From NCBI GenBank assembly GCA_977862235.1, contig OZ374560.1:434001-498000 (forward strand): DNA of 64,000 bases. Direction: 5' to 3'. The position numbers were made by a program, and so were the translations under genes. The notes under the pieces are model-generated. The model was not told the DNA's origin. It saw only the letters and a program-made list of their open reading frames with translations, and made no database searches. Positions 16,507 to 64,000 of this stretch are shown here, piece after piece (position 1 is the stretch's first letter; each line of letters opens with the position of its first letter). The stretch is from Dudresnaya verticillata. Taxonomy: Eukaryota.

Positions 16507-16510
16507 AACT

Positions 16511-16842
16511 TAATAATGAGGAGTGAAACACGTTGTGAGGAAGGAAGATAAGACAAGATGAATGGATAGATCAAATAAGAAAGTGTAATTGAATGTGTTA
16601 TAAAAGTTCTTCTCGTTCTGATGCCTTAGATCAAGAATGAACAAACCATTGAGGGTTCTTATAGACTTTCTACTTCTCAGCTTGAGATGGTATTCTAGTA
16701 GTTCAGAAAGTCAACAATAATATAGACGTTACTACTGTATAAGTGGAAGTATTGTATCTTAGCAATATTGTATTGATCTGATATTGCATGCATGTAATGC
16801 AATATCTCTAAGCAAATATCCATCAAGGATACAAGTTAGATA
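16511..16842 (-). repeat. 5' LTR of the Copia element
   Basis: Direct repeat of 11746-12077; followed on the minus strand by AGTTATGGGCCCAG. Confidence 0.95.
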
Positions 16843-32860: not shown

Positions 32861-33524
32861 GATGGCTTCACAGCTCTGTCGCCTTGGTGGTGGTTCAACT
32901 CCATAAAGCCGTTGTCTTGTAATGGCACGCGCTCTGTGGGATTCAAGGGCGCAGTTTGAAAGCAGGATGTACCCGCCATTGTATCTTGAACTTGGGCTTC
33001 GGGTGGGTGCATTACCGTTTGCGGCGCTGCTTGTTTGGCGGTAACCATCGCCGTACTGTCGGGTCTTGGCAGGGGAAACCGTTCCGACGGCGTCTGGTTT
33101 CCAATTGTCGAATTTGGAAAATCTGTTGACTTAGGAGTTGGACTTTTACCCTGCCTGGGTACAGGACTGTATTGTACAATACGACGCTCCGTGTGGAAGA
33201 ATGAGCCGCAGCCGAGTGTTGGCGCACTGTAAGTCATGTGTGCGCATTAAGGTGTAAGACGCCCACTCGCATCAAGCTGTAAGGCACGCACAAGCGCCGT
33301 GAGCTGTACGGACGATGCGCCCCGCTGGCGTCCCTGCTGGCACCAAATTTGATGGCGAATTGCCATTGGGTAAGTTATTGTGGCCGCTCACGCGGCCCGA
33401 CACGGTACTGCCACTAATCCGCATTTATAGCTGACAACAGTACTATTAGATGAATAATTACAGCTATAATAGCTTAGAATAGCTAATTGGAGGTAGGAGC
33501 ATATCCGGCTCTGCTATACTCAAT

Positions 33525-37678: not shown

Positions 37679-38442
37679 CGTGTTGCGGGGTGTCCGCATT
37701 ATTTCCTGGCGCTTGTATCAGCGCGGTATCGGGCCCAGGTGGGTGAGGGAGATCCTCTTGCAGCGTGTCATGCCGCGATGTGGACGACGCCAGAGTTGCC
37801 GAAATTCGGCGGCTCCGTCTGAGAGCGCCTTCCGGCGGTTAACCGCAGGAATTCCTGGAGAGCGGAGTCCCGCGTAGTGGGGAGTTGACTGGATATTCCA
37901 GAAGCTGCACCGGAACCCGCGTGAGTGCTTTGCGGGCCATCCGCGGTATTGTTGCGAAATCGCGCCCTCGGTGGTGCAATTGCGCACGAAGCCATCCCCG
38001 CGGGGTGAAGTTATCGGAGACGACTTGTTGCGCTGTTTCTTGACTGCGGATTTCCGCTGGAGCGATGAACTTCGTAGCGCAGCGTAGACCCGCTGATGTG
38101 TGGCTTGTTCGCCAAATGAGCTTCTCTACTGCACACGGCAGGTAAAGCGAAAGTATGGGATGATTCCATTTGAGGGCGAAGTTTTGGCGGATGAAGCCGC
38201 ATGCATCGCGATGAAACGGGCTTATCCAGTAACCGGACAGGCGAAGCCGTTGGAAAACCGACAACGGTATGCCGCATCGGCCTCCTCAGGGTACTTCCCT
38301 ATCATGCGGAGTTGCTTGCTGACCTGGCCGTTGCCGGTTAGTCGGAGCATCTACGGATATCCGTTTTTCGCGTAGCCCATCTGGGACTTAGCCGAAATGC
38401 GACGTCTCTTCGGTGGGACGCACGATGGTGCGCACGCCGGGG

Positions 38443-41166
38443 TCAAGGGTGACTGTTGCCAAATTCTGGGATCTGATTGGCCCCAATGTTTGGGGCCAAA
38501 GCAACAGCCAATCCTTGCACATAGCATGGCGTACAGTTCATGAAACGCCGACCTGTCCGGTACTTCGCGATGCTGCGACCGAGTCCGAGAATAGCCGACT
38601 TTCGGCAACCATTTTTCTTGACTTGGTCGTCGCGAGGAACGCGTTCGGGTACGGGACTATGGAGCACAGGGGATTCCCCCAGAGGCAATTGCCTAACACG
38701 AGGAGCCACTTCTACGTCAAGTAGGAGCTCATCTACAGATGCCAATTGCACACTTGTGGCTGCAAACTTTGTCGGGTAATCCCGTGGGGAAGTACCTTCG
38801 CGAACGCGTTTGTCCTCGGGAACTCCCGCTTGTATTATCGACGTTTGCGAAGTAGGGACTTTTCCCCACTTGTCGGAGACTGCGGAACAATTTCCGCTTG
38901 ATTGCTCTGATTCAGAGTCTGCGAAAGGGGCTTGTCCCCAGGTGCTTGCGAATTTCCGCGATGATGTGTTACTCGAGGATGCCTCCTCATAATTATCGTG
39001 GCCACCCACAATATTTAATTCTGCTGCTGCTTGAGAAGCGGGAGCAGGAATCAGTTGGGGTGGTCCCCAACTATACAAAGTAGCGAAATCGCTCTGGTTT
39101 TGGTTGGGACTATCTGGCAGTCCCAATAATTGTGGATTGACACCACACTGCCGTTGCCTGAACACCTCTGTCCGGCGTGGCGAATTCCCAGTATCAAGTG
39201 GCTTTCCCACAATGATGCTCCGGTAGTCAAAACCGTCGAGTGTGGAACCGTCAGAAAGGCGAACTCTAACATTGGGAATTCCCATTTCGTCGAACGGGTC
39301 CGCGAGGGAACTAGATATGGACAAACGCATGCTGGGATGTGGCACGAGTTTGCCAATGCCTTGCTGAGGAGAAACCCTCTGTGGTAGCTGACCGAAATTG
39401 GTGACAAGCACCAGGAAGGGTTTGTCAGGTTCAACCTGAACAACGCCCGCGTGAACAGCGCACGAGTGCTCTTTCTGGAAACTTGACTGTGGGATTACCA
39501 CTTGAATACCATGGCGCTTTTTCATCACTTCGACCCAGGTCGTCGCCTGCGGTAGCAGCCAAACGGGACGGGTGACTCGCATCTTAGGCGATACGCGACC
39601 GCGAAGTGGAGAGTACTCCTGAGAGTTTGGAAGGGGCGGTCCCCGAAGCACGCGTTTGTGCATTCTCCGAACTATTGGAACGGAGAGTCCGGAAGCTAAC
39701 TCGACACTTCTCCGGGCCGGCCATATGGCCTCGACGAACTCGTCACAAAACTCTGCGCCGAATACGGCAGGTACGGAGAGATCTCCAACAACGATGAAGT
39801 CAACATCCGTATGGATGTCACCGATGACAACATGAAGGCTGGTAATCCCGAAGGTATTCAGCGGCTTTCCGCGTTCGTCTCGGTAGTCTAGCAGCGGACC
39901 GTACCGCACTGTTGCTTCGTTTTCGGGGAGTACCCGTTGTAGTTCCGACTGCCGAATAAGGTTCGGGTCAGAAAAAGTGTCTAGCACCGTGACAGAACGT
40001 GTCACAGACACCTTTGATAAGCCGAAATCGGCATAGACCGCAGCATTCCGTCCACGCATGATGCGTATTCCCCGCTTAGCACGATGTGGAAGTCTTCTCC
40101 AGGGTCGTCGTAGGGCATAGTCCGTTGTCAGTACAGAGGAATGGCTCGTGATTCTCCGTGTGAGGACTCGAGGGGCGCGGTATGGGAGGATTTCCTCATA
40201 GCGATGAGTCGGGATGTCAGTTGCCGTTTCAATGGCAGTGCCGACTTCCGCAGGTTGTGACCGAGAATGTTGATGTTCAACGTGCGAAGGTACAAGGGGT
40301 CTTTCCCCGGTTTCTGGAGCAGGTCTCCATCTGATGCCGACTGTACGAATGTTGGCGTCACACTTTTTAGGGCGCTGGCTACATAGCTGATGCCCCGTGT
40401 ACTCCGGGAAATCCGGTTGAGTCGTCATGACGAGATCCTCTTCGTGTTCACGAAGTGCATCGAACATGTGGAGATACCCACTGTTATAATGGTTTGTAAC
40501 CGGGATCGTCTCGGTCTCGCTGTCAGACCAAGGGTTGCTCAGTTCCGACGATGTGGAACTCCACAGGGAAGAGCAAGAGGATGTTCTCATGGAGGAGAAG
40601 GTCGATGACTCCGAAGGTGCAAAGCACCTGCTGCAATTGTCGCTTGACGACTGTGGCGACCTGAAGGTCCGTGATGAGGTGGCTGAGCACCAGGTCGAGT
40701 CTTCCGAAGGTAACGAGACTGTCTCAGACCCTCGTATGGATGGAGAAAGACACGCCGCAGGGGGCGGATCAGGATATGAGGAGTTCCTCTGTGGTGGCCA
40801 TGTACATTGTTCGGACCAGACGGCAGAGCGGATATCCGCGTGGTGACGGGTGTATCCCGAATGACTTGGGATGACACCCCATTCCCGAATAGGCGGAAGT
40901 GATGCCGAAATCGGCGATGGTGGAATGGGCAGCGAAGGCGGAGATGCCGGCTGCCTGCCTTGGACCTGGCCAGTCGGGAGAGCCCCGGCTGGGTCAGGAG
41001 GTACTATCTCCACCGAGGGTGGTACACGAGGAACACCCCCATTGGGCATTGCCGAAAAGGCGGCTTGGACCGCAGGACATGCCTGCGCACGAGCTCGCGT
41101 AACCAGAGCAGCTCCAGGCTGCGATGGGGCGGACCTTGCCGACGACGGCTGTCGACGGAGTGGCAT
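38443..41166 (-). CDS. Element B long ORF (about 907 aa from ATG 41166): Pro/Ser-rich region, retropepsin-like domain, beta-rich post-protease domain; no RT/RH/IN
   Basis: Uninterrupted frame; TVLDTFSDPNLI...PAVFGAEFC; no YxDD or integrase motifs seen anywhere in the element. Confidence 0.75.
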   Translation of the reverse strand: MPLRRQPSSARSAPSQPGAALVTRARAQACPAVQAAFSAMPNGGVPRVPPSVEIVPPDPAGALPTGQVQGRQPASPPSLPIPPSPISASLPPIREWGVIPSHSGYTRHHADIRSAVWSEQCTWPPQRNSSYPDPPPAACLSPSIRGSETVSLPSEDSTWCSATSSRTFRSPQSSSDNCSRCFAPSESSTFSSMRTSSCSSLWSSTSSELSNPWSDSETETIPVTNHYNSGYLHMFDALREHEEDLVMTTQPDFPEYTGHQLCSQRPKKCDANIRTVGIRWRPAPETGERPLVPSHVEHQHSRSQPAEVGTAIETATDIPTHRYEEILPYRAPRVLTRRITSHSSVLTTDYALRRPWRRLPHRAKRGIRIMRGRNAAVYADFGLSKVSVTRSVTVLDTFSDPNLIRQSELQRVLPENEATVRYGPLLDYRDERGKPLNTFGITSLHVVIGDIHTDVDFIVVGDLSVPAVFGAEFCDEFVEAIWPARRSVELASGLSVPIVRRMHKRVLRGPPLPNSQEYSPLRGRVSPKMRVTRPVWLLPQATTWVEVMKKRHGIQVVIPQSSFQKEHSCAVHAGVVQVEPDKPFLVLVTNFGQLPQRVSPQQGIGKLVPHPSMRLSISSSLADPFDEMGIPNVRVRLSDGSTLDGFDYRSIIVGKPLDTGNSPRRTEVFRQRQCGVNPQLLGLPDSPNQNQSDFATLYSWGPPQLIPAPASQAAAELNIVGGHDNYEEASSSNTSSRKFASTWGQAPFADSESEQSSGNCSAVSDKWGKVPTSQTSIIQAGVPEDKRVREGTSPRDYPTKFAATSVQLASVDELLLDVEVAPRVRQLPLGESPVLHSPVPERVPRDDQVKKNGCRKSAILGLGRSIAKYRTGRRFMNCTPCYVQGLAVALAPNIGANQIPEFGNSHP

Positions 41167-41908
41167 GGCAGAAATTCTGCGATGTATGTGGAAGGTAGAA
41201 TGTGAAGAACGGTAGTTCCGTAGCGTACATAACGTAGCCAATCGGAATTTCCGAACTTCTAGGTCGGGAGACCAAATGTGGTGCAAATCCACTGCTGAAA
41301 ACAACAACGGAGGACACACCTCGGGCGTTCGGGACCCGCGGGTAGCGGTAGTAGGGGGTAGTGTGGTAGAGCGTGGGGAGTAGCCCCGTAGCGTGACTGT
41401 AAAACGCCACGAGACGAAAGAAAAAGGGAGGAACCCTAAAATAGCGGGAAGGCAAAGGAAAAAGGAGAAAACAGGGTTCTGTATGATGAAGAAGGGGTAC
41501 GCACGCACTGGAGTCCCTCCTGACGACGAAGGTGTCGGTCAAGGGTAGGGAGGTGTGTGTCGTAGAGCCCGAGCGTGGCTTGTTTACTGAATGAGGGCGC
41601 GCCCCTAGCTCTAATATACTATGTACATGCGGGTGCGCCGCAAATGAAGTGGGGAAGGGAGCGTGCCATTTGGAGATTCGTGACACGCGAAAAGGGATTA
41701 ACTAAAATTAACTAAAATTAAGGGTGGCTGACAGTGCGTACAGTAGCGAAGATCCGCCACCATAATCTGCCACCCGTTGCCGCCGGCGCGCAGGACTTAC
41801 AGGCCGGGCGCCTTACAGGGGCAGTCCCCAAGGGCATTGCTGGCGGGGAGTCCGCGATTTGAGGTAAATGAGCACCGGTGAATTGCACCACAATCTGCCC
41901 TTCAATAT

Positions 41909-42752
41909 TGAGGTATAACGAAGTCCACGGTGACGCGGGGAAGTCTCGCACTGTAAGTAATGGCCTCGGAGCCTAACCAATGGCCTCGTAGCCTAACAGA
42001 GAAACGGAAAGGGGTGGTAGCGTGGTAGAGCGGAGCGACCAACACGAAGGACCACGGTGTCAACGTATTCGTGTGCGGAAGGGAGAACTCGAGCGATCGA
42101 TCACCGGGGATGACTCCGGGTGCACGGGGCTATCGAAAGCGAGGCTCGACCGTATCCGCGGTCACGAAGACGAAGACACCGAACTCGAAGAAACAGGCGT
42201 TTACCGAAGACTCCGAGGTCCGGGCGCTAGTCGCTTACCGGAAACCCTCGGAGGTTGTCCCAGACGACTGGCTAAGTAATACTACGTGAGCACTAACACA
42301 CGTCAACGCGGGAGACGGTTCGTACTCGAATGATTCGTAACGGACTCGGTGCCAACGAACGGTCGTCTCACGTATGGTGGCGGTTACGAAGTGCGCCAGT
42401 GATGGATACGGAGGTGCACGCGTGTCGTGGACCACGGTACCGTTACGCGCGGGAAACAACGGGAAGATCACGAAGGTGTCAGCGATTTCGTATCGGGTGC
42501 GCACTGTAATGCGAATGCCATCGTGGCGCGCGCGATCACGAAGTCCACTCGGAATTCGTCCGGAGGTGTCAGCGATTTCGTATCGCATGCGTGCTGTAAT
42601 GCGAATGCCATCGTGGCACGTGCAGAGTATGCGCACTGTAATACGTTTCCCATCGTGGCGTGCGCATTCACGGAGTCACTTCGAAATTCGTATTTCTCGA
42701 TTATTTTTCACGTAGACCACGGAGTCGTTTTGCGCAAAGCGTCTATACCACA
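41909..42752 (-). mobile_element. Solo LTR E2 (844 bp)
   Basis: Inverted homolog of 17837-18678; TSD AATAT at 41904-41908 and 42753-42757. Confidence 0.92.
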
Positions 42753-44058: not shown

Positions 44059-45063
44059 TTAAACAGGCTGACGCCCTATTGACTTAAGCCAGGCTTCTGT
44101 CTTCAGGCGGTTTACGTTAACTTTCGAATTCGAAAGCCTCCGCAGGCGACAGCGTTCTTTGCGTGTGAAGTAAAGACTCTTTAGTAGAAGTAATCTTTGG
44201 GGAGCAAGGTCCCTAAGTCGCCGAATATCGCCGGCTGGTTCGCGGTAGTCTAGTGCTTCTATTGAGCGCTGCTTTGCGTTCGCGTTTGCGGTGCGCCTAG
44301 AATCCGTTTTTGCAAGAGCGTTAAGGACGACGTCGTTCGTCAGGTTACACCCGCGCTTCGTATCCACGCGAATAGTTCCAGCATACTCCACGTCTGCATC
44401 CCGAGGCAGACTTCTCCCTCTGCTTGCAAAAGATGTTACTAGCTTCTGTAAAGTTTGCGGCCTCTTGTCTTCCACATCCGACTTAGAACTGCTGTTGAAT
44501 AAATGTGCGAGATTTAGAACGTTAGTGACTCTCCGTTCACGGTCCCATATCCCTGAACGATGGAATCCCTCTGTAATGTACCGCGGCACCACAGACCGAT
44601 CGTATGCGTTGCGAATGAATAGAGCAATGTCAAACGCATTCAACACGTTCGGTCGGGACTTGCAAGTCCTTGTTTGACGAGCCGCAGAGTGGATTTCATT
44701 CTGCAACGCAGCTCTGTAAGACGAAAACACGGAGACATCCAACGGCTGGCACACGTGGGAAGTGTGCGAGGGCATCGCAATAGTCACAATGCGGTTACTT
44801 CTAAATAGATGAAGCGTTCGAAACTGAACAAGGGAACCATATCCGTCAATTATTAAAAGAATATAGGCCCTATTAGTACGCAAAGACTGCGTTTCCACAA
44901 CAAACGTCTTCGCCCAGTCGAAAATAATGGCTGAGTCAACCCCCGGTATTTCGCGTTGATACAGGTAGCAAGGTGGCAATATTTCTTGCAATGTTTGAAC
45001 GCTGTTAGGTTTTAAGCGCCTGTAGAGCGCCTGTTTTCCTGGATACACAATAACTGGCGTTAA
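44059..45063 (-). pseudogene. pogo/Fot1-type transposase 2, DDE_1 and C-terminal part, cut off by LTR C
   Basis: PVIVYPG, LLIIDGYGS, MPSHTSHVCQPLDVSVF, GFHRSGIW; collinear with transposase 1. Confidence 0.92.
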
Positions 45064-47350
45064 TGTGGTGCAAGGGGGGGTGAGCCCCTTCTTCGCTGAA
45101 AGCGGAGCGACAAATACGTCGACCGACGGAGAAACCGCCACCGGTGCTCACCACCGCCGTTAGCGCACGAACACGTCATCGACGGCTCACTGGGGCGCAC
45201 GCACACGTTGCGCACCGCGCGTCATGCGGGCACTGTACGGTGATGGGCCGATATGGCGCCCCGGGGCACTGTAACACGGATCTAGATGGGATCCGGATCC
45301 GGTATCCGGATTGGCTATCTGGATCGCCTGCGCTGTAATGTAAGCGCCTGTAAGGCTGCGAGTGTCTCATTGCTGGCCCGGATCCGGATGGGGATCGGGA
45401 TCGGACAAGTATTGGATTAGATGAAGGGCGCACGCTCTACAGTACGCGCGCGCACGGCTGTATGGCGCACGCGTCCACGTGTGTGTGTAAGCGCCCACGC
45501 AGGGGGTTCCGCGGCAACCTGTCAGGCGCGCGGCTTCATACGATGGGTGATCTGTCAGACGCGCCTCGGGACGACACGTGTCCCAAGTTCCCGCGCTACG
45601 CACCCGCACCGCCGCCGCCGCACCGTCGTGCTATACTTAGGTAAGCCGTCCCAGACGTAGCAGTAAACGCCCGGGCAAGCCGGCCTTGGTCCAGACTTCC
45701 CCATTCCGCACACGCGTACCCTCCGCTACCGCTGCCTACGGCCTAATCGTCTACCTCCCGTGCTTCCACGATCAACCACCGTCGTTGACGTGTTTCCTTT
45801 TTGTTCTCTTTTGTTCTTCCTTTCCGCCTCGGACGTTTACAGTCTGCCCAAGGCGTGTCAACCGCTCTACCACAAGCCGCCCTAGGCGAGGTTACTCACC
45901 GCCACGGGCGTCATTACCCTCCAAGCCCCGAACTGCTCGGCGGTGTTTCGTCCAGGACGTTGGCACCACATCTGGTCTCCCGACCTAGAATTTTGCTACG
46001 TTTCAACGAGTGCCTCCGTCGTGTGACGTCCGACTTTCCGTCTTCAAACGTTTGTCGCCAATCGTCCGCGACTTTCAAGCAACTCTATGACTGCATTATG
46101 GCCTCACGACCGCCGCCGTCGCGAGGCCCAAGTCCAAGAAGACCGTCATCGCCGCCTGGGAGTGTCCCCGCGTCAGAATGGTCGCTACAGCGGATGAAAA
46201 CAAGATCAGGGCGCCTCGTGAGCCCGCAGATCGCGTTGGCCTTCCCGACACGACCCCCGGGCCACGGCCACGCAGGCTCCCACGCGTCGCTTAAAGGAGG
46301 AGAGTTACCTCCCCCGCCGACGCGCATTCCTGTTCCCGTCCTCACCTCAGTCACCGAGGGATCGGCCCTCCGCACCTACCGCTCCTACGTTGACTCGGCT
46401 GATACTGTACAAGCCGAGCAACAGCGCGTCGTAGACGGAAGCCAAGCCGACATCGTCGAGGAACAACCGGAACTTCCGAACCAACCAACCATCCCCGTCA
46501 GCAACGATCAGGGGCACTCCGCGGAGCGCAACTTCGCTGACGACCCATTGATACCTGGGGCATGCTGCCCCACTCCCCACGGCAGTGCCGGTTACTCACC
46601 GGCTAAGCCGAAGTCGCCAAGCCAAAGGGCTGAAGGAACGCCCAACCGGTCAACCCCCGAAATCCATCCGCCAACGGCGTCACCCTCGGCCGTCCACGTG
46701 AGTAACTTAACGATACCACGCGAACAGATCCGAGAGGTATGTGTCCTGGAAGACGATGCTTTGCTCGCTAGGATCGCCGGTTTGTTGGACGACAGTGTCG
46801 GAGGAATCGCAAGTCGTCTACAGACGTTGGAAGAAGATCGAGACGGCGCCCTACAAGGGCTTCGCTCCGACCTTGACCGTCTATTGACGAACCAACATGC
46901 CCATGGCTAGGTTACCCAACCACCGCCGGCAGCAACGGTCCATTCTCACCCTGAGCTTAGCTCACTCGATCGCTTTCAGCGACTGGCGACTCGCTTAGAG
47001 CGTCTTGACACCGCCAAGTGGCGCAACGGTCCACCGTCGGGCGAGGAGAGCTCGTGCGAAGACCGTCATAGACGCAATGATCTGAAGAGACGCCGCCGCA
47101 AGCTGCGTCATAGACGGAAGAAGAACCGTCATCGACATGGGGATTCATCCTCGTCCTCTTCGGACTCATCAAGTGACGGAGAGTCATCCGACTCTTCGTC
47201 TGAAGACGACGACTTCCCAGCTCTTGGCAGTTCCGCAAGACCTCGCGGAAAGCGGTTCAAGGGGTTGAAGGAACTACGCCCTTCCAACCCCCTTTTCGAT
47301 CAGCTGCTATCGTATAGGACTTATCGTCTCCAAGATGTAGGGCAGAAACG
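45064..47350 (+). mobile_element. Gypsy-type element C, 5' part only (LTR 45064-45970, PBS 45973-45990, gag-like ORF from 46098)
   Basis: TGTGGTGC...GCACCACA; the same 18-nt PBS as A and B; ORF MASRPPPS... reads past one TAG (46910) to ...LLSYRTYRLQD. No 3' LTR in the window, and the right boundary is approximate. Confidence 0.85.
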
Positions 47351-47441
47351 CCCAAGGCGCGTCCGGTCGTTATCTTTACTTACTCAAAAGTCGTGACGAT
47401 GTGCCCGAGAAACTTGTACAGCTGTCGAACGGCTTCCACGC

Positions 47442-48197
47442 TTGGATACCAACAGCATGCGACTAGCTGGGGACGAACGCAGGTCAGACCACAATGCCCA
47501 CACGACAACCAGACTTTTACGAACCCAGAACCAGACTGATATGCCTAAAACAAAGGTGGGAAGCGATGGCCCCGCCGAAACGGGGACAGGCGGCAAGAAC
47601 AACGCGCCTCAGAAGGCCGGCAAAAAGCCGGGCGCAGGGGACAGTAACGGTGCAAGCTATGGCCATGCTCATACGGGAAAGAGAGTGGTTGCGGACACAG
47701 AGTAAGGGGACGTTCTGCTTCATACACCGGAGAAGAAACCGCAGATGCGACCCCGGCCGCCGAAGGTCTACCGCTGTCCAGTTGTTCGGCGTCGCGTTCT
47801 TCGAGAAGGGGAAGACTTATCAGCGGAACAATCTGGTTCGGATGGCGAGGCACCTTCTGAGTATAGCACCGATGGCTCGGGTGCAGAGAATAACATTGAA
47901 CGCGAAGCGTCACCTACACCCTCCCCCAAGAAGGGGGTCAGGGAACGGACGAGCAACGGAGGAAGACGGGTTTCAACACATGTCTCTGGTTCTGCGGAGG
48001 AAAGCGGCACGAAGCGCGTTCATGATAGAAAGAGGCGCAAGGTGACCAATTCAGGTGCATCACAAAAACGAACATACTAACAGAACCCTGGACGGGCGTC
48101 AGCTGATGACTCTTCGGAAGCCGAACGGAATTCAGATACCGATGATGAAGCGGGCATAGTGTGGCGCAACACTAAGGGGCCTCCGAAACGGACGTAA
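47442..48197 (+). pseudogene. Low-complexity, charged ORF remnant with in-frame stops; function unknown
   Basis: ORFs 47442-47705 and 47745-48080 are in the same frame and continue to 48197; NLS-like RKRRK. Confidence 0.35.
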
Positions 48198-48870
48198 TCG
48201 CCCGGGCCAAGTGGGACAGTCGGCCCAATCAAAAAGGCACGTTTGGCCAGCCGATGACAGTGCGGCCGGGCGGACGCCGGTGAACATGCGCAAGAGACAC
48301 ACGTGTCCAACAAGTGTATACGTGTGTCAAACGTGGCCACCAACGACACCCAAGCGCATCACGTGGCCCGCTGTACACGCATGATCAGTGTGATCGGATC
48401 TGGAGACAAGCGAAAAGAGGAAATTGGATTTGACCGCAAGTGAAATCAAGAGAAAGACAGCAGAAAAATCAAGCGAAAGTCTAACTCATTTGGCCAACCA
48501 CTAACGCAAAAGTACTTGGTTTCGTCTGGTAAGGGTGCAACATTGGCCCGACGCCGGAACACAAGTAGATATTATGGCCGACGGGGAGTAACCTCGGCCA
48601 CTAGCTGTAGAATAGCGCTTGATTAGCTCCAGTGGCCGATTTTGGGCCTACTTAGGTGGCCACAAACTACGGCTCGGCCAGGATAGGTACGAAGCCGTCC
48701 CGCCAGAGGTTGGGAGTAAAGCGTTGCAACCTTTTCCCAACTCGGCCATTTTCCACTGCTCAAGGTCCGCTCTACGTTCGGGCGTTTGCTACGAAATCCG
48801 ATCAGTCTTCCTGGTCCTTTGGGGTCTCATTTCGGCGCCGCACTCAGTGGTGCCTTTCGAGATACTACAC

Positions 48871-51047
48871 ATGGAACCTGGTCAGCGTACGGGAACACGG
48901 AAGTACACTCGCCGCACTCACAAAAAGGGAAAGAGGCACGAAGGCAATCTCCTCGCCAGGTGCAAGAAGCAGCTGCGGCAGCTGCAAGCATATAACATTA
49001 AGAAAATGAAATGCTGCCCTGACAACTGCTTTGCCGACATGGAGCCGGTTTTTCTCCGTGCAGAAGCGCGACGTGTGCTGGTAATGGGTGCTGACGATCG
49101 GTGTGAGTACTTAGAGACGCTACTGAAGCCAGAAGCAGTCAAGTTTCATTTCGCCGGGAAGCCAGTGTGTTACGTTTTTCTGCACCGTGCATTCGGATTC
49201 TCACGCGACCTGCAAGACTTCGTGAAGGGCACTCCAAATGGTCGTAGAATTGTGATGGGCGGTGTCGAGGGTGGAGCGAGAGATGCCCATTCCGAACAGC
49301 GAGATGTCGTCATTACGTTCCTGGAAAGGCTGGCAGAATCCACAGCGGAGTGCATGCCAGACGTTGAAGAGCTGCATTTGCCTTACTTTAAGAAAAAGGC
49401 AGTTTATGACTTGTATGTTGAAGAGCACAAAACGCTGTCTCGAAAATGGACTCCAGCAGTACCGAGCTACTTCTATGACAGGTGGAAGAAACACTGTCGT
49501 AGAATCAAGGTGCGGGGGTTGCACAAGTTCACAAAGTGCACAGAATGTGAGGCCATACGTGACCTCCTTTCAAAGGGCGGTACTAACTCCAGTGCGACTG
49601 AGGGGCTGCGCTGCCGTCGAAGGAAGCATCTGGACTTAGTTATGAAAGAGAGGAGGGAGTACCGCAAAAAGTCCGAGATGGTTGAACTGTACCCACCGGA
49701 ATTCTGTTCGTTAATTATTGACGGGGCAGACCAGTCTGCCTTCGGCCTGCCCCACTTCCCAGTGACCACCGAGAGCACGACAGGGCACGCATTGAAGGAA
49801 AAGCTCTTCGGCGTGCTGGAGCACGGACCGTGCAAGCCGTTGTACCTATACACGAGACAGCAGAATTCGAAACGGGTGCAAACCACATACTTGAAGTACT
49901 GCACCGAATGCTCATGATCAAAAGGGACAAAGCAGAGTTGCGAGGCACGCTCTACGTACAAGTGGACAACTGTTCCCGCGAGAACAAAAACTCATTCTTC
50001 ATGCCGTACTGCGAGAGCCTAGTGGCGCGGGGTGTATTCAAGGAGGTGCACGTCAGTGTTTTACCCATAGGGCATACACACGCAGACATTAACCAAGCAT
50101 TTAGTTGCACATCCAGAAGCCTACGCGGGAATGAGGCTGTGACCATGGAAGACCTTTTGACAGAATTTTCACAGTCATACACGCTGCCACCTGTAGTGAA
50201 CAGACTACTGCACGTCGCTAATTTCTCAGGCTTATGCAAGTCCGCGCAATGTATTGGCAGGGTTGAAACCTTTTTTCAATATCGATTCTTCAAGTTCAAT
50301 AGAGTGCTTGGCTCTGCACCTACCAACGCCCGTTATGCTACTGGTTGTTCAGTGTGAGATAATTGCACCGATGACTTCACTGATTTGGACACAACATCGG
50401 AACAGAAAGGTTTCATTCTTTTTGTGCCAGACATCCGGAAAACACCACACACGACTGCGAGGAGCCCACCTGACATGACAAAAGTCAACCACCACCTGCG
50501 CACCGAGGAGATGCGAATCAACTCAACCGCAAAAATGGCATCGCTTCCCGCATTGCGCGACCACGTGTACAGGGACAGGGAAGAGCCTTTCCACTGAAAC
50601 ATTGATGACTGCTTTGAACTAAAAGGGACGTACAAACCTGAGCCGGGGGGCGCAGTGGAGGAAGAGGTTATGCAAGGGGAGGTCGCAGGACCTAGTTTTG
50701 ATGTGCCGACCGCAGACCTGACCTACACACCCAATACGTTCGTCGCCGTCAGTCCTGACCCGAGAGATGTGCAAGATTCCAATGCCACACCATTCTGGCT
50801 CGCCGAGGTCATACATGTCATCCGCAATGCGGGGGATTTCATCCACCAGCTCCACTTGCACCGGTACGAAGTGCATGGCGTCGATAGACCGTGGACAGGG
50901 CGTTACAAACCGTGCTCCGTGCGCGGCAAGCCTTGGAAGGAGCGCATATCTGTCAATGCGATTTGGACAGAGTTCCCAGCGTTTTCCAAGCCAACCATCC
51001 CCTTCGGAGCGAGGAAGAAAAGCTGTGAATCACTTATGCAATCTTGA
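48871..51047 (+). pseudogene. Sola-like DDD cut-and-paste transposase with Cys-rich N-terminus and a C-terminal beta-barrel-like domain (one frameshift, two stops)
   Basis: CC..NC, KCTEC, IIDGADQ, QVDNCSRENKN and PIGHTHADINQAFS motifs. ORFs 49830, 50385 and 50655 share one frame. The superfamily label comes from memory of the DNC..ENKN / GHT signature. Confidence 0.8.
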
Positions 51048-51213
51048 GTAACGAGGCCAGCATCATGTTGTAAAGTCGCATCCGTTAAGGGAGAGAAGCA
51101 GGACACCAGTAGAGCGAAAATGTGCCCGTATACAATCGGCGTTGAGGTTGTACGTTACCTACGTGATATGGATTCGGAATAAGTTCTGTGTCTGCGGGAG
51201 GTGAGGCCCTGTT

Positions 51214-51233
51214 GAGCAATACTGGTATTGCTC
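51214..51233. promoter_or_regulatory. Palindromic site 1
   Basis: GAGCAATAC-TG-GTATTGCTC, 9-bp arms. Confidence 0.5.
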
Positions 51234-51453
51234 TTTAGGTATTCGCCAGGGTGAAACATTACACCTGTTACTTACGCAACAGAATTGGGCCCAGACAGAA
51301 ACCTATGCATTTTTTGGCGCGTGGTTGCGGGAGATATCTGTTTTCAAGATGGGTTAATTTCCATTGGCGAAAACCTATACACGTTTTCAGATATCGCATT
51401 ATTATTTGCTATTAAACTAATATTGATGCCGAGAGCTCCGAAGACTTGTTAGT

Positions 51454-51469
51454 CAATACTGGTATTGCT
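51454..51469. promoter_or_regulatory. Palindromic site 2 (same core)
   Basis: CAATAC-TG-GTATTG-CT, 16 nt identical to site 1. Confidence 0.5.
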
Positions 51470-52204
51470 TTTTGCGTTCTCTCCTGCACCGCAAACTGAA
51501 ACCTGTTCCGCAGCCTCGTGCCCGTCTACATCGAGGGCTCGCTCCCACAGCCCTACCGTACACGTGCATCCCCATGCACGCCGCTTCATGTACCCAGTTC
51601 CCGTCATGTCGCCATCGCAAACCGCCCCTTGGAGGGGCATGAAAAGGCCAACGCCGCGCGATTTGAAGCATTGTGTTCTTGGCCGTCTTGCGTATTGCGC
51701 TTCAGATCGAGAGCGAAGCCTTTTCGAGTGTTCCTGGATCCACACGGACTCCAAATGTGTCGCGGAAGCCATCGCAGAGATACAGACGCTTCGAAATTCG
51801 AAGAGTCTGTGGCCCTTCAAGGGCAGTAGCCCTTCTCAAGGGCAGCAGCCCTTCACATTCTTGCGAAAGGGAACCTTCTTTCCGCGAACTAACACCAATA
51901 CCGCCACGATTCTCGCATGCTTGAGCTAATCGGAATCGGGATTCTGTCTGTGGTCCGACCGCGGGCCTTTGTCCGTCCCGATCACAGACAACATGCGCTG
52001 TACGATTCGAATGAGAGCATCGTGTTCGCATACGAATTTTAAGTCGATCTCGAATGAAGGAATTTGTACGGACTCAGATCAATGTGCGTTTGGTTCTGAT
52101 TAGGGTGTACAGGCGCGCGTACAGCAGCCTGTTTTGCTCGTCATAATTGTTCACCACGTTTCTGCACTGCGCGGCATCATGATCAGCTCTACTTCGGCAC
52201 AAGT

Positions 52205-54788
52205 ATGTCTCGTGGCGAACTGACCCAATTACGACAAGAACCTGCACTTACTCGCACCCAAACATGGCAGGGGGAGACGAAGGAAGAGCGCTGAAGTGCC
52301 TGCCGACGAATGAACCTGTATGAGTGTCCTAGAGGCAGCAACGGCGCTGTTCATGGAGGTGATGGATGGGTCTGTCAACATCCACGTCGATCCGTAGGCA
52401 TGCGTCCCGCTCACAGACATACGGCCTATTGTCAGTTCTGGTGTTGAAAGGCTGAAGGTCATATTCCGCGGAGACCCAAACCCACATTTGGGATCCTCGA
52501 ACACCGGCTTTGTAGCTGGGTCAGACGCACCGATACTTGTGAAGCTTTCCGTTACTCTACGTGGCTACACCATGACTTATCTCAGAGCCAAACAGAATCC
52601 TGACGGCTCAACCTCTCGGAGCAGCAGGTGAAGGAGGTTTATGAAGCGCGTTCCGAGTGGCATGGCATTGTGGACGGGCTGCAAAGAGTTACGGCCCTAC
52701 TCGAACTTTTCGAGAAAGATTACAACAAGTGGAAACAGTTCGCACTTCCGGTCACCGTGTTGAAAGGAGGGCACAACATTCAATTGCTTTGGCAACTGGC
52801 CAGACATCAGAACAAGAAACATGACTCCGCGTTCTATATAGAGACGAAATTTTACGATTCGATGAGGGGGCTGAGAGAGGAAGCGGACAGACTGACGGCT
52901 GTACATAATGGGAAGGCCCCCAACTGTAGTGCCTGTCGCACGTGCGTACGATGTGTGCAAACACCGCACGGATAATACTATTAAGCAAACAGCAGGCATG
53001 GTACTTCGTCTGCACAGGAAAACGATCGCAGAAATCGGGAAGATAATGAACGACACGTTACCAGAGATGGCCTCGCGTCACCAACTGCACGCTTCCGGGA
53101 GTGTCGTGGATAAGATGACTGCAATGCAAGCTATAGATTGTCGAATTTTCAGGCGTTTCGCACACATATCAACTTTTCGGTCATCACGACCGTTCATGAA
53201 CGCAGGGATTTCCGACGAGGGCGTAGAAATACAGATTGCGACTCTGTGCCGTCTGCGGGAACTGTCCAGAGGTCATCATTTCAAACCAATGGGTCACAGA
53301 TTTACGACCGAGCAATTCGAGAAGACCAGTGCAGCGATGCAAGAGGTCGGCAAGTTTGAATTCGTCCGAGAGCAAATGGAACGGCCACCATCCATGAAGG
53401 TACTGCGGTCAAATATGCTAAGGAGCACGAAACTGGATGTTGAGGTATCCATAACAGGGGAAACGATCATGACCTGTTGAAATCTGTACTGCAGATGTAC
53501 AGGGATACCTGCCCTCAAGAGGCTCCGCTGAAGCTAATGAAGTATCGCGACAACATCGTCATGTCGGCTCAGGAATCTCAGCGAACGGAGACCCCGGCGG
53601 AACACTCTACCCCAGCAAGTGCTGAAGAACCTTCAGAAATGGAACAGAATTCAGTTCTTCAAGAAGGTGATCAGAGTGGTAAACTGGCAGTAGGAAACGA
53701 AACGAATCCGTGTCCTGCCTGCAACAGCAGATCATTTGGGTTCTATTGATACACCAGCAGTACCAAAAGGCACAGAGCCGGATACAGAACCAGAGGCTGA
53801 TGCATGTACTGAGGAGGGTGTGACAGGGGGTGTTGGTGGTCGCATGCATACTGCAACTGCAGCAGCCGCATCTGAATCAACACTGCAGTCAGAACGACTG
53901 AATACTGGAAAGGCAGGCGACGAAAACGGAAGTGTCGCACGAATCGACTACCTGGAGCAAATGAAACTCACATGTCTGCAGGTGATGTGGCAGAGGTACG
54001 ACTCCTCCGTCCGCAATGAAGGAAGCACGTCGTTCGACCTTTTGATTACGAACCCCCTACGGTACCAAGAGTTCACAATCAGGCACAGGCAAGACCTATG
54101 ACAACAGCGATGTGGAGATCAAGGTCCTTGTCGGGTTCGACAGAAGGGTTGTTGTTCCAGGGGGTGGTTTGTTATCTTTACGTCTTTTCTACTCTTTCCA
54201 ACGTTTCATGAGGCATTTTTGAAGTACCATTTCACGTGCCCTGCGTACCCGCACGTCTTCATGAAAGATACAAAGTCAATGCAAGCACACCGTGGGAACA
54301 GCATGTCTCAAAAGGTCGTGGAAATTGCTGTCTTTGCGAGAGCTCCAGGGGAGCATCCGTAGGGGTTCAAACCGGACCTGTCTAGTAACTACAACCAGAT
54401 ACCACCCCCGTAAGGCCGTCGTTTCGCTGGCGTTTCCCGAGTCCCTGTACCGCAAGAAAAACTGCACATGCCCTCTACAAAGTCCCCAGTACTCGTGGAG
54501 GAAAAGAACCCAAGCTTAATATCTGAGATGATGGAAACATTCTGCCGGGAAGAAGGGTCCGTTATTGATAATTACGGGGGTACCATGATGACAGCAATTG
54601 CAGCGCTACGGACCGGGCGTTCATGTACGTCCATCGAACAGAATCCTGAAACTTTCGGAGTAGTCCACCAACGACTCATTGGGCTAACGAAGAACGATTT
54701 CGAAGCTACGAGGACGAAAGAAGTATTCGGTGAGGCGAAACGAGCTTGGCAAGGGGGGAGCCTGGCCCATGAGGGGCGGCCCTACTGA
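52205..54788 (+). pseudogene. ParB/Srx-like domain fused to a beta-class amino (N6A/N4C) DNA methyltransferase; several frameshifts and stops
   Basis: ParB-like: IRPIVSSGVERLKVIF...PILV...GIVDGLQRVTAL...LARHQN. MTase: FDLLITNP[P]YG (C-run frameshift about 54053-54057), RRVVVPGG-WFVIF, EKNPSLISEMMETFC, VIDNYGGT, AALRTGRSCTSIE, i.e. motif order IV-VI-X-I-II. Confidence 0.8.
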
Positions 54789-58654: not shown

Positions 58655-61600
58655 ATCTCTGTTAAAGTACCATTGGAATAATGTCGCCATCTAGCACTTG
58701 CGTTCACTAACCCGTGACTAGCCGTTAACAAGAGCCATTACAATGAACGGTTAGGACACTCACGCGGTGGAATGACATAGGTATCTCGGGTTGCTGGTCC
58801 CGACTGTAAAAGGCACTCTTCACATCAATTTTGCTAATGAACTATCCGAAAATTGTTGTGATAGAAAGTAATGTTCTAAATCTCAGAGGAGACACCCTTT
58901 GACGATCGTCACTTAAAACATCAGGTGTAGCAGTGGTCAGAACATGGTTAAGCCTGTCAAGATCAGATTCTTCCTCAGGGTTATGGCCATCTGCATCTTC
59001 TATAGCAATCTCGGAAGCATTATCATCCCTATTTTCACGATATACAGCAGAAATAGTTTCAAATTTGAAGTAATCCAGAGCATCCACACCATCTCATACA
59101 TTGCGTCATGGAACGTTTGCGTAAATTCCCCATGTAACTATTCGTCTTCTAACATCATTTTAAATTCATCGGAACAAATGTCAATTGCCTCTTGGACAAG
59201 ATGGGAAACTCAGCATCACTGGGCAAATGCAGGTCGTACAACTTCTATAGCTGCACAAATGGGCATACCAGAAGAACTAGGTACAGTTATTGACCGAGAC
59301 TTCTGATCATACGTCAGAACGGGGCGAGGGAAACTCCATTTTCCACGTTTCTCATTAGGGTTCTTAATAAAAATTTCCGCAAGGTCACCAGACTTCATCT
59401 TATTATCTGATGTAGCTTTTGAAAGCATTATTGCGGTCAACTTCCGGCATGCCGATAAATCTTCGGGTGCAAAAATAATTTCAGGTGGTACAACGATTGA
59501 TGAATTATTTGGAAACACAGGACGCGTATATCCTTTAGCTAGCTCGTGTGCAGATGCAATTTCTTTTCCATATCGATCATTTGATATGCGAATGGCTTGA
59601 ATTATAAGACGCAGGCCTGGACTAACGGGACGTCGACGATTCACGGCGAGGCCGGTGAGCTGGAGAATGCGGGAAACCAGTGGTGAAACTAACGAATGGT
59701 ATTCAGTAGTAGGATTTGTTCCCCGGCGCGTGGCCAGGAAAGTAATGAGCTTTTGAAGTGCGCTACGGCATTCGGGGCCAATGCCTCCGTGAATGTCGAA
59801 TCCCAGCGGCGGAAACGTAATACAATGTGCTGCACAAGCAGTGCGATACTTGCGATGCTTCTCCCGTTCAGCGACTTGGGCGGCTCCTGCAGGAATTTCA
59901 GATGCCTTGGATACAGCACGAGCAGTAGAGGGAGTCACAATAGTAAGATCATAACCAATGCATGAATCAGAAAAGGCGGGATCATCCAACACCAAGTCCA
60001 ATCGTCGAAGATCGTCCTGTAGATGAAAGGACTGCTCTCTCGTGACAGAAAGCCCGATAGACGGGTGACGGAGACGAGAAAAAAGGAGATCCCTAATAGA
60101 ATTGTGACGACGAGTGGACCCATGGGCACAGGGACATGTCGAAGCATGATACCACAAACGGTCAAGGGAAACCACGCGACCAGAAACGGATAGACACGCA
60201 GAACAAGGGAGGTCTGGCGCAAATACAGGTGCGCCCAAACGCAAGTCGATCATGGTAGCCCATATAGCAGGTGACACAGAGCTGCCTCGGCGTGGATCGG
60301 GGAATGCGGTAAAGGCCATTCGAGATTCCAAACTACCACAGGAGAGAAGTCTGGCCCTTTTCACACGATCTTCTCTCTCAGTCGAACGGGTGGAGGGCCA
60401 GTAATTATCCACCAAACGAGCGTGAACCTTCGCGGAGAGTTCTTCTTGCAAGTGGGGGATGTAACCTCGCTTTCAGGTGCGAGAGAGGAGAGTTGAAAAG
60501 TGATAATCGCTAGATGATCCAAACCGAGTACACAGGATAGGAGAGCCGAGCACAGTTAGAGAATCATCGTGAGATATAGTAACATGGCACCCGTTAGCAG
60601 TGACAGGGATTCGAGAGGGACGGCGCCACCACCAAGCAGTGGTTTTGGAAAGATTGAGATGGAAACCAATCTTAGATCCTTCCGTTGCGAGGAAAGAAAG
60701 AACTGAACCGAGCATACTGCGAGGCAGGAGGAAAGTTCCATCATCGGCGAAGAATACTTGCAAAGGCATAGAGAAACGGGTACGAAGGAGACACAAGAGA
60801 GGTTGCAGGACCAATGCAAACAATAGAGGGCTAAGTGGATCACCCTGATGAGTGCCGGATCGACTATGGACAAGGAATGATCCAAAGTGTAACGGAGCCA
60901 CGGCCGTATATAAAATGGATCCACTTTTCCAGACCCGGGCAATGCAGTACCACTTCTGAGAGTATCAAGCTTCGCTCGATGGCATTAAATGCATTCGCAG
61001 CATCCAAGCTCACGAGTACCATGTCTAAGTCACGTAGTCGAGTCGCTCAATAGCGTGAAGCATGTATGATCGCTTCTGCACCCCCTGAAACGCCTACAGA
61101 AAGTTGAAGAGGGCAGAGGACTGCAATACAGGATCACGAGTAACCTTAAAGGCAATTATTCGACTGATAAAACGCCTAAGAAGCACTGAAACAGCTATAG
61201 GACGCAACCGAGAGTTGTTAGCCTTAGGGAGGCCGATGAGAGTGCCACCAGCTAGAAATGAATGACAAGCTGCTGGCAAGTGCCCATTGACGGCATGGGT
61301 AACAAACAACGTTAGCTCTGCCAGCACAGACCGCGACGGATCGGAACCACCCGGCGTAGAAGCTAGGATTTTGAAGACAGCGGGACGAAGGCCAGGACAA
61401 GAGGAGCTTGGCATGGAGAGTAAACCCTTGCGAACTTCAGCCTCTTCAAATTGAAGCGCGGGGGGGAGCTGAATGGAATCAAGAGGAACAACAGGGCGTT
61501 TCGGAGCGGGATGTAAATCTTGAAGCAGACGGGCGTTGAGTGCCGTGGGTTGAGCAGGAACCGAATCCTCGGTGAGAATCGCACAGGCTTTAGATAAGTA

Positions 61601-64000
61601 GCCATCCCTGAACGCATTACGACAGCGGCTCAAGCGCAACTCCGCAACGGAAGGAAGGTGAGGTGGTGGCAGGCGTGAACGTAGATGTGCAACTTGAGCT
61701 TCAGAATATAACTGAGTCCATTCACCGCGCATGGCCAGATGGACTCTGTGGCGAATACTGTTGTGCAAGGAGCGGTTTCTGCGGTTGCGAGGCTCGTGCA
61801 GACCATTTTTGCGGAGTACCAACTTCGGAGTGACAAGAAGACGCTCAAATGCCTGGTATTGGAGAAGAGAAGTGTTTGCAGAATTAAACGAATGTAACAG
61901 GTAGTAATAGAGATCGATTACAGGTAATCGTAAAGAGTTGGGGATGTATGTCAGAGTAGGAATATGGGTATCACAAATAGCATTCAGAGGAGGACAAGCA
62001 CCCACAGTGGGAAAGGTCATTGGTGGCTGGAAAGAACGGGTTCAGGTGCTGTGTCCATGGGGGTGTCTCGAGGACAGTCATTGGAGGGCGAAGGGGGCGA
62101 GATTGCAGGACGGCGAGGAACCAAGGCAGGGGCATCTACAGCATCACGATTCGAGCGACGAACCAGCTGGGACCCATCCGAATCGAGGACAGGATCTCCA
62201 GAAGGACGGGATCGGGGTAACCCGTACCGACGTCGCTTGGCGGCGAGTGGAATCTCGCAAAGCGGGAACGCATGACCCTGTTGCGCCCGACCAGCCGTGA
62301 CGAGCTTAGCAAAGAGAGCTTTCGATATGGCGCAGTGCTTCGGAGAAGAAGGGAGCAGGGCGCCAAGAACAATCAAGGGCTTCAAGTCGGGTGCTTTCGG
62401 TGCGGAGAGAGGTAGTAATGGCTGCGATATCGTCTAAATCAGTCACGGAGGTCGCCAAATAGAGGACCGGCGACACCGAAATGGTCGGGACAACAACAGC
62501 ATCAGCATCCTTCGCGTAGTCCAGAAATGTAGTATACGCGGGAGCAACATGAGGAAGGTCTGCGGCCCCCGCACAAACATAGAAAGCTCGTGCACTATCC
62601 GTGGTGATGATTGAACAAGGGCCAGGAAAGCCCCCGACTTTCAGGGCAGAGCGGAAGTGAGCGGGGGAGTCGAAAGGACTAACGTTGGCGGCAGTGGAAA
62701 CCTTAACAAAGCGCTTAGCGTGTGAGCCGACGAGGGTGCGGTTAATGCGGCGGACATCACTCTCCAGGCGACGAGAGATAGGCTGTTGAGACGGATGTGT
62801 GGGAGCTTGATTTCCATGACGTCCAAGCATAGGAAGCTGGCCGACAGGACGTTTGGGCAGGTGAGTGGAAAGGGCGGCGAGATAGGGTCGAGGCGAATCT
62901 GGGGAAGAGGCGGCGGGAGCAGCGGTGGGAGAGATGACATGGGCGGAGGGGTCGGAGATAATCGATAAGAGGCGCCGCCGAACTGGTTTCCCCGGCAAAA
63001 CAGCGGAATTAAACCTTGAACAGCTGGCAACGGCGTCAGGCTAGGAGCGAACTGAGCTATCGCGGTGTCGTTAGCAAGATCGACGGTCGACAACAAGGGG
63101 GCACTTAAGCTGAGGAAATCAATGACTGCATGTGTGAGGGCGGTGAATGTAACAGACTTAGAGCCCGGATGCGTAGGTGTGGAAGGGGCACGAGGGTTTC
63201 TGGCGGAATCGGGCATGTCGGAAACAGAAGCGCCCGAGAACTTCGGACAAAGAGGACAAGAAAGCGCCAACTTTGACTCTATATAATTCTTGCTTGGACA
63301 ACGAGGTGGAGCAGGACGAAAGCTGATATCAAGCTGTTTGAGATAAGATTTAAAATCCGAGTTTTAAAGGCAAGATCACCTTGAACTGCTATTGGGGGCC
63401 CAAAGGCAGATATCCAACATGCCTCAAGAGAATATATTGCATCTTCCATATTTTTGGTCGTAAGGCATTGCTCTGAGGAATACCTGGACATCGAGTCCAT
63501 TATATGGAATACATTTAAATCCTGGGGGAAAATGATCAACAAAGACAAGACCATTAAAACCACGCGATAAATTATTTAGAGATACAGTACGAGCCTTTTT
63601 GGGCAGGTATGTAGAGTGACAGTCTCGACACGACTCAAGAATCTTCTACAAGTACGATGCACATTCATCATTCCATAGACTATTTCGTTCAAGTAAAGTT
63701 TTGATGTCATAGTAGTTGGAATGGTCACAGACGTGTGCGCGAACCTTGTCTATACTATGCTTCAAATTGTTCCATTGAATAGAGCTAGAACTACTGACAA
63801 GATTTTGAATAAGCTCATCATCAATATAAGGACTTTGGTTACAAGTATTATCAGATGATGCAGTTTGCACAAAGCGGTCAGCAGGAGATAGTCTAGTAAA
63901 TCTTCTTTCACGATACGGATAGAATCCTGTATTCCAGCATAGTTCTGAACTGGGAGTTGTGACAAGTTACCATTCATATGCATAATGTTACAGTGCTTCA
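58655..64000 (-). mobile_element. Decayed copy of the Copia family at 11746-16842, interrupted at 59609-63270; continues beyond the window
   Basis: 58655-59608 matches about 13169-14469 (with an internal deletion near 58890), and 63271-64000 matches about 14536-15270; many stops and frameshifts. Confidence 0.93.
59609..63270 (-). mobile_element. CRE-clade non-LTR retrotransposon coding region (RT plus restriction-like endonuclease), frameshifted
   Basis: LRPIAV..LLRR, DAANAFN, GTHQGDPLSPLLF, FADDG; C-terminal CSAC...HASTC knuckle, RRHN, RLD...YDLT, EREKHRKY, GG. Confidence 0.88.

What the first reader, a model, noticed from the sequence alone, without database searches (positions are those of the whole stretch)
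48871..54788. DNA-transposon locus carrying a ParB-domain + amino-DNA-methyltransferase fusion gene
Seen: about 1.2 kb downstream of a Sola-like transposase, on the same strand and similarly decayed, fragmented frames reassemble into a ParB/Srx-like domain (R...L...PILV...IVDGLQR...LARHQN), a possible HTH, an acidic linker and a full set of beta-class MTase motifs (NP[P]Y, PGG, K-P, DxxGG T, AA..GR..IE). Known: ParB-MTase fusions of this motif order are typical of phages and prokaryotic mobile elements, and (N/D)PPY usually indicates N6-adenine specificity. Inference: a eukaryotic cut-and-paste transposon that carries its own DNA-marking enzyme, for self-recognition, activity control or escape from silencing. 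I could not find the element's TIRs, so physical linkage to the transposase is not proven.
Basis: partly seen in the sequence, partly recalled or inferred. Interest (0 to 1): 0.88.

Follow-up and report, generated by a model that had tools for sequence, protein, structure and literature searches.

The report
Dead transposon carrying ParB-methylase gene
This is a broken copy of a cut-and-paste jumping gene, likely from a red seaweed, that carries a second, bacterial-style gene predicted to bind and methylate DNA, likely the element's own; the same pairing is already published for a brown-algal transposon.

Summary
52329-54767 is a pseudogene (6 frameshifts, 3 stops) of an intact family of about 750-1190-aa proteins: ParB/Srx fold, helical region, acidic linker, beta-class amino-methyltransferase. 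48871-51047 is a broken DDE transposase (DUF7869; likely Sola1). No TIRs were found; both ends look truncated. The family motif is DPPY; the window's N and frameshift are likely decay, and 6mA versus 4mC is open. 24 of 36 long relatives lack an intact DPPY-type motif. Extras: a GGCC array before the transposase, a ~95-aa domain found on either protein, a BAH-like transposase tail. The kind is known: Ectocarpus Sola1-1_Ec32 carries a ParB-like/methyltransferase gene (PMC12477816), Bostrychia elements carry related cargo, and this scan noted it before in three other genomes. Function is untested here and I found no assay in print. New member of a known kind.

The parts
47368..47445 (+). Remnant (last third) of a ~95-aa beta-rich domain that sits at the C-terminus of many family methylases and at the N-terminus of some family transposases; likely the truncated left end of the element
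   Evidence: Own HMM: 7.5 bits here, best of 62 control 2-kb segments 2.1 bits; tblastn to P0138 residues 77-102, E 0.006. Domain sharing:
47451..48197 (+). Low-complexity, charged reading frame with two internal stops; likely the decayed linker behind that domain
   Evidence: Sequence; P0138 has a disordered linker at the same place (pLDDT under 50 at 109-258); no significant sequence match, so inferred from position
48205..48747 (.). Array of 15 GGCC cores (10 YGGCCR) directly upstream of the transposase; candidate binding or target sites
   Evidence: 15 in 561 nt against 3.3 in shuffles, largest 9 of 1000; highest density in the window; top 5-mer GGCCA 16 times, 0 of 300 shuffles reach it
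48871..51047 (+). DDE transposase pseudogene, DUF7869 family, likely Sola1; one frameshift, two stops, and N in place of an invariant D at 50091
   Evidence: PF25273 E 2.9e-39; 43 relatives; RNase H/DDE fold of relative P0138: Mos1 Z 8.1, integrases Z 7.3-7.9, rmsd 3.2-3.7 over 131-146 residues; D invariant in 29 of 29
50720..51030 (+). C-terminal transposase domain predicted to have a BAH/Tudor-like barrel
   Evidence: P0138 residues 865-968 match DNMT1 BAH1 Z 7.0 (rmsd 3.6, 83 aligned), AIPP3 BAH Z 6.8, ORC1b BAH Z 6.7 (middling Z); window aligns across it
51214..51467 (.). Two exact copies of a 14-bp spaced palindrome (51217, 51454) in the spacer between the genes; unexplained
   Evidence: pattern taken from the data, and 1.7 matches are expected by chance at 2 mismatches, so only a lead
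52329..52930 (+). ParB/Srx-fold domain of the accessory pseudogene (W-H-G-I-V-D-G-L-Q-R at 52658-52687)
   Evidence: 129 relatives, best E 1e-31; model of relative P0130: PadC Z 9.4 (rmsd 2.7, 97 aligned), Pnob8 ParB Z 9.0, sulfiredoxin Z 7.5, KorB Z 7.5
52931..53550 (+). Conserved helical region; HTH possible, not shown
   Evidence: tblastn of relatives; helices in the model; Pnob8 and KorB alignments run on to residues 382-386 with rmsd 4.3 and 10.6
53551..53930 (+). Unconserved acidic linker
   Evidence: Alignment A2; pLDDT under 50 at 480-567
53934..54767 (+). Beta-class amino-methyltransferase domain, broken: motif IV at 54051 reads N-P then frameshift (family DPPY), motif I at 54567 after it
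   Evidence: family profile hits M1.HpyAVI E 6e-18; model matches CcrM Z 23.9 (rmsd 3.2, 228 aligned), M.BceJIV 23.1, M.MboIIA 22.0, N4CMT 19.6, M.PvuII 18.8

Best explanation
This is a dead, end-truncated copy of a DNA transposon family (likely Sola1, likely red-algal) whose intact members carry an accessory ParB-fold/amino-methyltransferase protein that likely binds the element's own repeated palindromes and is predicted to methylate DNA there. Shown: the two broken genes, their folds in intact relatives, their repeated co-occurrence and co-divergence, the motif array. Inferred: the ParB part likely gathers the protein on the array (possibly nucleotide-gated, as in bacterial ParB), the DPPY domain would add 6mA or 4mC nearby, and the mark would favour transposase expression or end recognition, or keep host silencing off; lineages without DPPY would keep only the binding role. 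Confidence splits: real linked cargo about 0.9; self-directed binding about 0.6; self-methylation by DPPY members about 0.45.
For: Intact single-ORF family: 33 of 35 relatives of 750 aa or more hit PF01555, 30 at or above the cut-off. Folds. L001 holds a DUF7869 transposase head-to-head with a family methylase 1.9 kb away. Identities of five pairs track each other, r 0.97, best of 120 permutations. A ~95-aa domain occurs on 13 of 36 methylases and 5 of 43 transposases, and its remnant lies upstream of the window transposase. The window copy sits in a 97%-supported group whose 4 other members all have DPPY. Ectocarpus precedent.
Against: No TIR or TSD: 10 candidate end pairs against 9 in the control. 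Only 1 of 6 family loci fetched shows a transposase, though the other five are 1.6-3.6 kb. 24 of 36 long relatives lack an intact DPPY-type motif. No significant motif array upstream of the L001 transposase. Nothing ties the array to the protein. The host is not identified by any search.
Confidence: 0.55

Rival explanations
1. The accessory protein is mainly a DNA-binding or scaffolding factor, a TnpA-like helper for the transpososome or an anti-silencing binder; catalysis is dispensable.
For: 24 of 36 long relatives have altered motif IV while ParB residues R75, W162, G164, D167, G168, R210, N213 stay at about 90% or more; a group of 17 rows without DPPY persists as long ORFs (support 88, not starred); a domain is shared with the transposase.
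Against: 17 of 42 rows keep DPPY/F with motif I across deep branches, including all close relatives of this copy.
Confidence: 0.27
2. The enzyme marks host DNA broadly or at new insertion sites rather than the element itself, changing host chromatin in the element's favour.
For: Beta-class enzymes usually read short sites that occur genome-wide (established knowledge); YGGCCR occurs 87 times in the window; the transposase tail is predicted BAH-like.
Against: The array is concentrated inside the element (10 of 87 YGGCCR in 561 nt); a ParB fusion suggests local loading.
Confidence: 0.12
3. The two genes belong to separate elements that happen to be nested side by side in a repeat-rich region.
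For: The window is a nest of LTR, DIRS-like and DDE remnants; no TIRs; unequal decay; related accessory genes move between superfamilies in red algae.
Against: L001, three contig-length pairs, co-divergence and the shared domain.
Confidence: 0.06

Closest known systems
Sola1-1_Ec32 of Ectocarpus and its 1104-aa ParB-like + DNA methyltransferase accessory gene (PMC12477816; passages and supplement rows read; figure and sequences not seen)
   Same: Same two-domain accessory protein beside a Sola-type transposase, similar length, same proposed role (binding and modifying its own sequence), same open 4mC/6mA question.
   Different: That element is 21.5 kb with 282-bp imperfect TIRs, AACCG-CGGTT ends, a 4-bp TSD and the gene on the opposite strand; here the genes are in tandem (head-to-head in L001), about 7.4 kb survives and no ends were found. 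Sequence homology to the Ectocarpus protein could not be tested.
Plavaka accessory genes PAG2 and PAG3 of Bostrychia and other red algae (bioRxiv 10.1101/2025.02.11.637652; abstract, section 8 and methods passages read; supplements closed)
   Same: Red-algal DNA transposon cargo with a PF01555 methylase (PAG2) and a ParB-like domain next to inverted-repeat arrays (PAG3); mobile among superfamilies.
   Different: There the methylase is fused to SET and ParB to a 2OG oxygenase, in separate genes of a three-gene cassette; here ParB and methylase are one ORF, with no SET or 2OG Pfam hit in 51 relatives. Supplemental Table 6, not seen, may list Sola carriers.
Beta-class amino-methyltransferases (CcrM, M1.HpyAVI, M.BceJIV, M.MboIIA, M.PvuII, rotifer N4CMT)
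   Same: Fold and motif order, IV before I.
   Different: About 20% identity; fused to ParB and carried by a eukaryotic transposon; target base and site unknown.
Phage ParB-terminase-locus methylases and eukaryotic clades derived from them (PMC4738411, passages read)
   Same: ParB and methylase association; phage hits lie beside terminase and portal genes.
   Different: Phage matches cover only the methylase domain at 24-28%; the passages read describe no rhodophyte ParB + permuted methylase clade.
VANDAL/VANC anti-silencing transposons (as cited; otherwise recalled)
   Same: Works-like model: accessory protein binds motif arrays in its own element and changes its epigenetic state.
   Different: VANC is non-enzymatic and causes loss of 5mC; Mutator superfamily; no homology tested.

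Membership tests
Beta-class amino-methyltransferase (PF01555) | Profile hit above cut-off | tested here: met
   30 of 35 long relatives; the window's last fragment alone is below cut-off
Beta-class amino-methyltransferase (PF01555) | Permuted fold, motif IV before motif I | tested here: met
   CcrM Z 23.9; DPPY at 605, motif I at 780 of P0130
Beta-class amino-methyltransferase (PF01555) | Intact catalytic [DNS]PP[YFW] motif | tested here: not met
   Not met in the window copy; met in 12 of 36 relatives, including its closest
N6-adenine DNA methyltransferase | Adenine, not cytosine, is the target | not testable with these tools
   Top folds are 6mA enzymes (Z 20-24) but 4mC enzymes follow closely (Z 18.8-19.6); a DPPF 4mC enzyme, M.BamHI, is recalled, not checked
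ParB/Srx fold | Structural match to ParB/Srx nucleotide-binding domain | tested here: met
   Seven ParB/Srx-type chains match model residues ~50-220, best Z 9.4, rmsd 2.7, 97 aligned (model of relative P0130)
ParB/Srx fold | Pfam ParBc or PDB sequence-profile hit | tested here: inconclusive
   None; only GmrSD_N E 0.02 and DndB E 5e-4; too distant for profiles
ParB CTPase clamp | CTP binding, sliding, HTH recognition of a parS site | not testable with these tools
   DGxHR-like motif, upstream R and downstream R..N conserved; their role as nucleotide contacts is recalled; R171 kept in only 37 of 72
DDE cut-and-paste transposase | RNase H fold with invariant acidic residues | tested here: met
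   (D535, D538, D618, D658, D660 invariant in 29 of 29); window has N for D660
Sola1 superfamily | Sequence similarity to curated Sola1 transposases | not testable with these tools
   No curated Sola1 sequence held; resemblance of DNC..NKN and GH..D motifs is recalled; the Ectocarpus carrier is Sola1
Sola1 superfamily | TIRs and 4-bp TSD | tested here: inconclusive
   None above control; both ends appear truncated
Sola2 | DFxENY, SDG, FATSHGK motifs | tested here: not met
   Compared by eye with the Sola2 alignment, PMC3627910 file S10 part 1 of 2
Sola1-1_Ec32-type accessory gene | ParB-like + amino-methylase ORF beside a Sola-type transposase | tested here: met
   architecture only, homology untested
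PAG2 (Bostrychia) | PF01555 fused to SET (PF00856) | tested here: not met
   No SET hit in 51 relatives or in 10 more by precomputed domains; the window copy's 3' end may be lost
PAG3 (Bostrychia) | ParB-like domain fused to 2OG oxygenase | tested here: not met
   All 35 long relatives align to the window's methylase region instead

The most novel reading that the evidence does not exclude
Intact members run a miniature bacterial-style system inside a eukaryotic transposon: a nucleotide-gated ParB clamp loads on the element's own GGCC-type array, spreads, and lays a private 6mA or 4mC mark that licenses the transposase, whose BAH-like tail and the ~95-aa domain shared by both proteins couple the mark to transposition. 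It would be the first enzymatic self-marking transposon shown in eukaryotes, co-inherited across deep element lineages.
Probability: 0.17. Interest if true: 0.82.

Novelty: new member of a known kind. Interest (0 to 1): 0.4.

Why it matters
The pairing is known but, in the papers read, only predicted. This work points to intact DPPY enzymes (P0003, P0130, P0195) with likely partner transposases and a candidate motif array, so the question of whether a eukaryotic transposon methylates itself with a bacterial-type mark becomes directly testable. The split into DPPY and motif-less lineages gives a natural control. The window copy itself is dead and is useful only as a pointer.

Tried and rejected
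No host genome is held, so copy number and ends could not be read. No sequencing run was listed; no evidence either way. Word-indexed search with the middle fragment found nothing, though relatives exist. The Atlas gave no result. Viral contigs: 0 of 2 candidates. Prokaryotic genomes: 2 of 46 candidates, methylase C-terminus only. PHROGs and phage tblastn: methylase domain only. Of 13 metagenome loci, 7 (L007-L013) match the methylase domain only and were not counted as family. TIR/TSD searches negative, including Ectocarpus-type AACCG/CGGTT ends. Motif array upstream of the L001 transposase, or upstream of either methylase gene: not significant. No solved fold was listed for the shared ~95-aa domain in whole-protein searches; it was not folded alone. 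P0013 and P0125 were dropped as repeat-driven false hits; 12 near-duplicates were dropped before the tree; the first tree run did not finish. The tree has only 4 prokaryotic rows and says nothing on the donor. Bao 2009 and Yuan and Wessler 2011 are not held; Iyer 2011 is known only as reference 50 of PMC12477816. Nine paper searches showed no assay of such a protein and no account of the shared domain; the library lacks most subscription journals and Repbase Reports.
Full report
Setting. The window is a nest of mobile-element remnants: a Copia element with LTRs, Gypsy-like and DIRS-like pieces, DDE_1 fragments. No host genome or run was available. A red seaweed is my inference, from recalled look of these elements, intron-free long ORFs in the relatives and the red-algal literature; no call names the host.

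The accessory gene. Window fragments alone score weakly. A full HMMER search with the ParB-like fragment (52604-52972) returned 129 cluster representatives, best E 1e-31. I scanned 51 of them: 35 are 750 aa or longer family members, 33 of these hit PF01555 and 30 reach the cut-off; 14 shorter ones and 2 repeat-driven false hits do not; none hits SET or a 2OG family. All 35 align to the window in collinear pieces. Against P0003 the window gene is 42.7% identical with 6 frameshifts and 3 stops. An AlphaFold model of the relative P0130 (pLDDT 78.8) matches beta-class methylases at 570-825 (CcrM Z 23.9; 4mC enzymes Z 18.8-19.6) and ParB/Srx proteins at about 50-220 (PadC Z 9.4, Pnob8 ParB 9.0, sulfiredoxin 7.5, KorB 7.5, SerK 7.0, SbnI 6.0, Atu1540 5.9). 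The fusion is therefore real, not a chance join of frames.

Catalytic state. Motif IV is DPPY/F in 12 of 36 long proteins and altered in 24. In a FastTree tree of the methylase domain the window copy groups (97) with four DPPY proteins, and 17 rows without the motif form a weakly supported group. So this lineage likely had an intact active site, and the window's N plus frameshift are likely decay. The target base is open.

The transposase. DUF7869, 43 relatives at 46-66% in the core, 51% to P0138 with 1 frameshift and 2 stops. The model of P0138 shows an RNase H/DDE core and a C-terminal barrel resembling BAH and Tudor domains at middling Z. Five aspartates are invariant in 29 of 29; the window has N at one. 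It lacks Sola2 motifs (by eye). Sola1 is likely but rests on recall and on the Ectocarpus parallel.

Linkage. L001 has both genes head-to-head; the other five family loci are too short to tell. Across these three, L001 (methylase partial) and the window, methylase and transposase identities correlate at r 0.97, best of 120 permutations; with five points this is suggestive, and three pairs are inferred. A ~95-aa domain is C-terminal in 13 of 36 methylases and N-terminal in 5 of 43 transposases. P0003 lacks it and P0138 has it; the window fits that layout, with a remnant at 47368-47445.

Ends. The remnant begins where a gag-like frame breaks off near 47360, and GC rises from about 0.5 to 0.65-0.7 after 54700. 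No TIR/TSD pair exceeds the control. I infer that both ends are lost.

Motifs. A GGCC array lies at 48205-48747; it was picked after scanning six motifs, but it is the window's maximum and beats all shuffles. L001 shows no such array by the same test but has two long perfect hairpins mid-spacer; the window spacer has twin 14-bp palindromes. No link to the protein is shown.

Mechanism. Most likely the accessory protein binds its own element through the ParB/helical half and, in DPPY lineages, adds 6mA or 4mC that helps the element stay active; motif-less lineages would act by binding alone. Every functional step is inferred.

What is known. PMC12477816 (passages, supplement rows) reports Sola1-1_Ec32 with a 1104-aa ParB-like/methyltransferase gene and proposes the same self-modifying role, citing green and red algal parallels. 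The Bostrychia preprint describes methylase-SET and ParB-2OG cargo moving among red-algal transposons; its supplements are closed and may bear on Sola carriers. PMC4738411, PMC6431247, PMC3627910 and PMC5751038 (passages) add background only. Earlier notes of this scan report the same design in three other genomes (unchecked).

Verdict. Real, linked, dead here, and a new member of a published kind. What may be new is the family survey, co-divergence, the shared domain, the active/inactive split and a candidate array. Interest 0.40.

Noticed in passing
P0138, P0139, P0156, P0157, P0171 (N-terminus); P0130 and others (C-terminus); window 47368-47445: An unnamed ~95-aa beta-rich domain occurs on either the transposase or the methylase; no Pfam hit; by recall it resembles the plant CACTA TnpA-type domain, untested.
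   Followed up: partly
window 50720-51030: Transposase ends in a predicted BAH/Tudor-like barrel, a possible chromatin reader.
   Followed up: partly
window 51214-51233, 51454-51467, 51789-51803, 51812-51853: Cluster of palindromes in the spacer between the two genes.
   Followed up: partly
L001 3501-3559: Two adjacent perfect hairpins (13- and 16-bp arms) in the middle of the spacer between the divergent genes.
   Followed up: no
L001 2595-2960: Seven loose AACGG/ACGGT-type motifs upstream of the transposase; not significant by k-mer test.
   Followed up: partly
window 11745-16809: Copia-type LTR element with LTR copies identical over the 300 nt compared and a long pol frame; decayed relatives at 58655-59612 and 63271-64000.
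   Followed up: no
window 26554-29366: DIRS-like element: reverse transcriptase frame (PF00078 E 4e-12) overlapped by a second long frame that looks recombinase-like by recall.
   Followed up: no
window 17881-22949 and 38030-42707: Two inverted copies (80-94% alike) of a Gypsy-like element with long gag-protease-like frames; nested inverted repeats between them.
   Followed up: no
window 44059-45147 and 31890-33130: DDE_1 (pogo/Fot1-like) transposase fragments on the - strand; PF03184 E 6e-13 for the first.
   Followed up: no
window 10040-11092: Intact 350-codon frame for a cysteine-rich protein with a likely signal peptide and no Pfam hit; possibly the one host gene here.
   Followed up: partly
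window 6694-6739 and 1404-1700: A perfect 46-bp palindrome and a 12-bp tandem array.
   Followed up: no
L003 2900-3125, P0077 C-terminus: Some family methylases end in a cysteine-rich, PHD-like finger instead of the shared domain (by eye).
   Followed up: no
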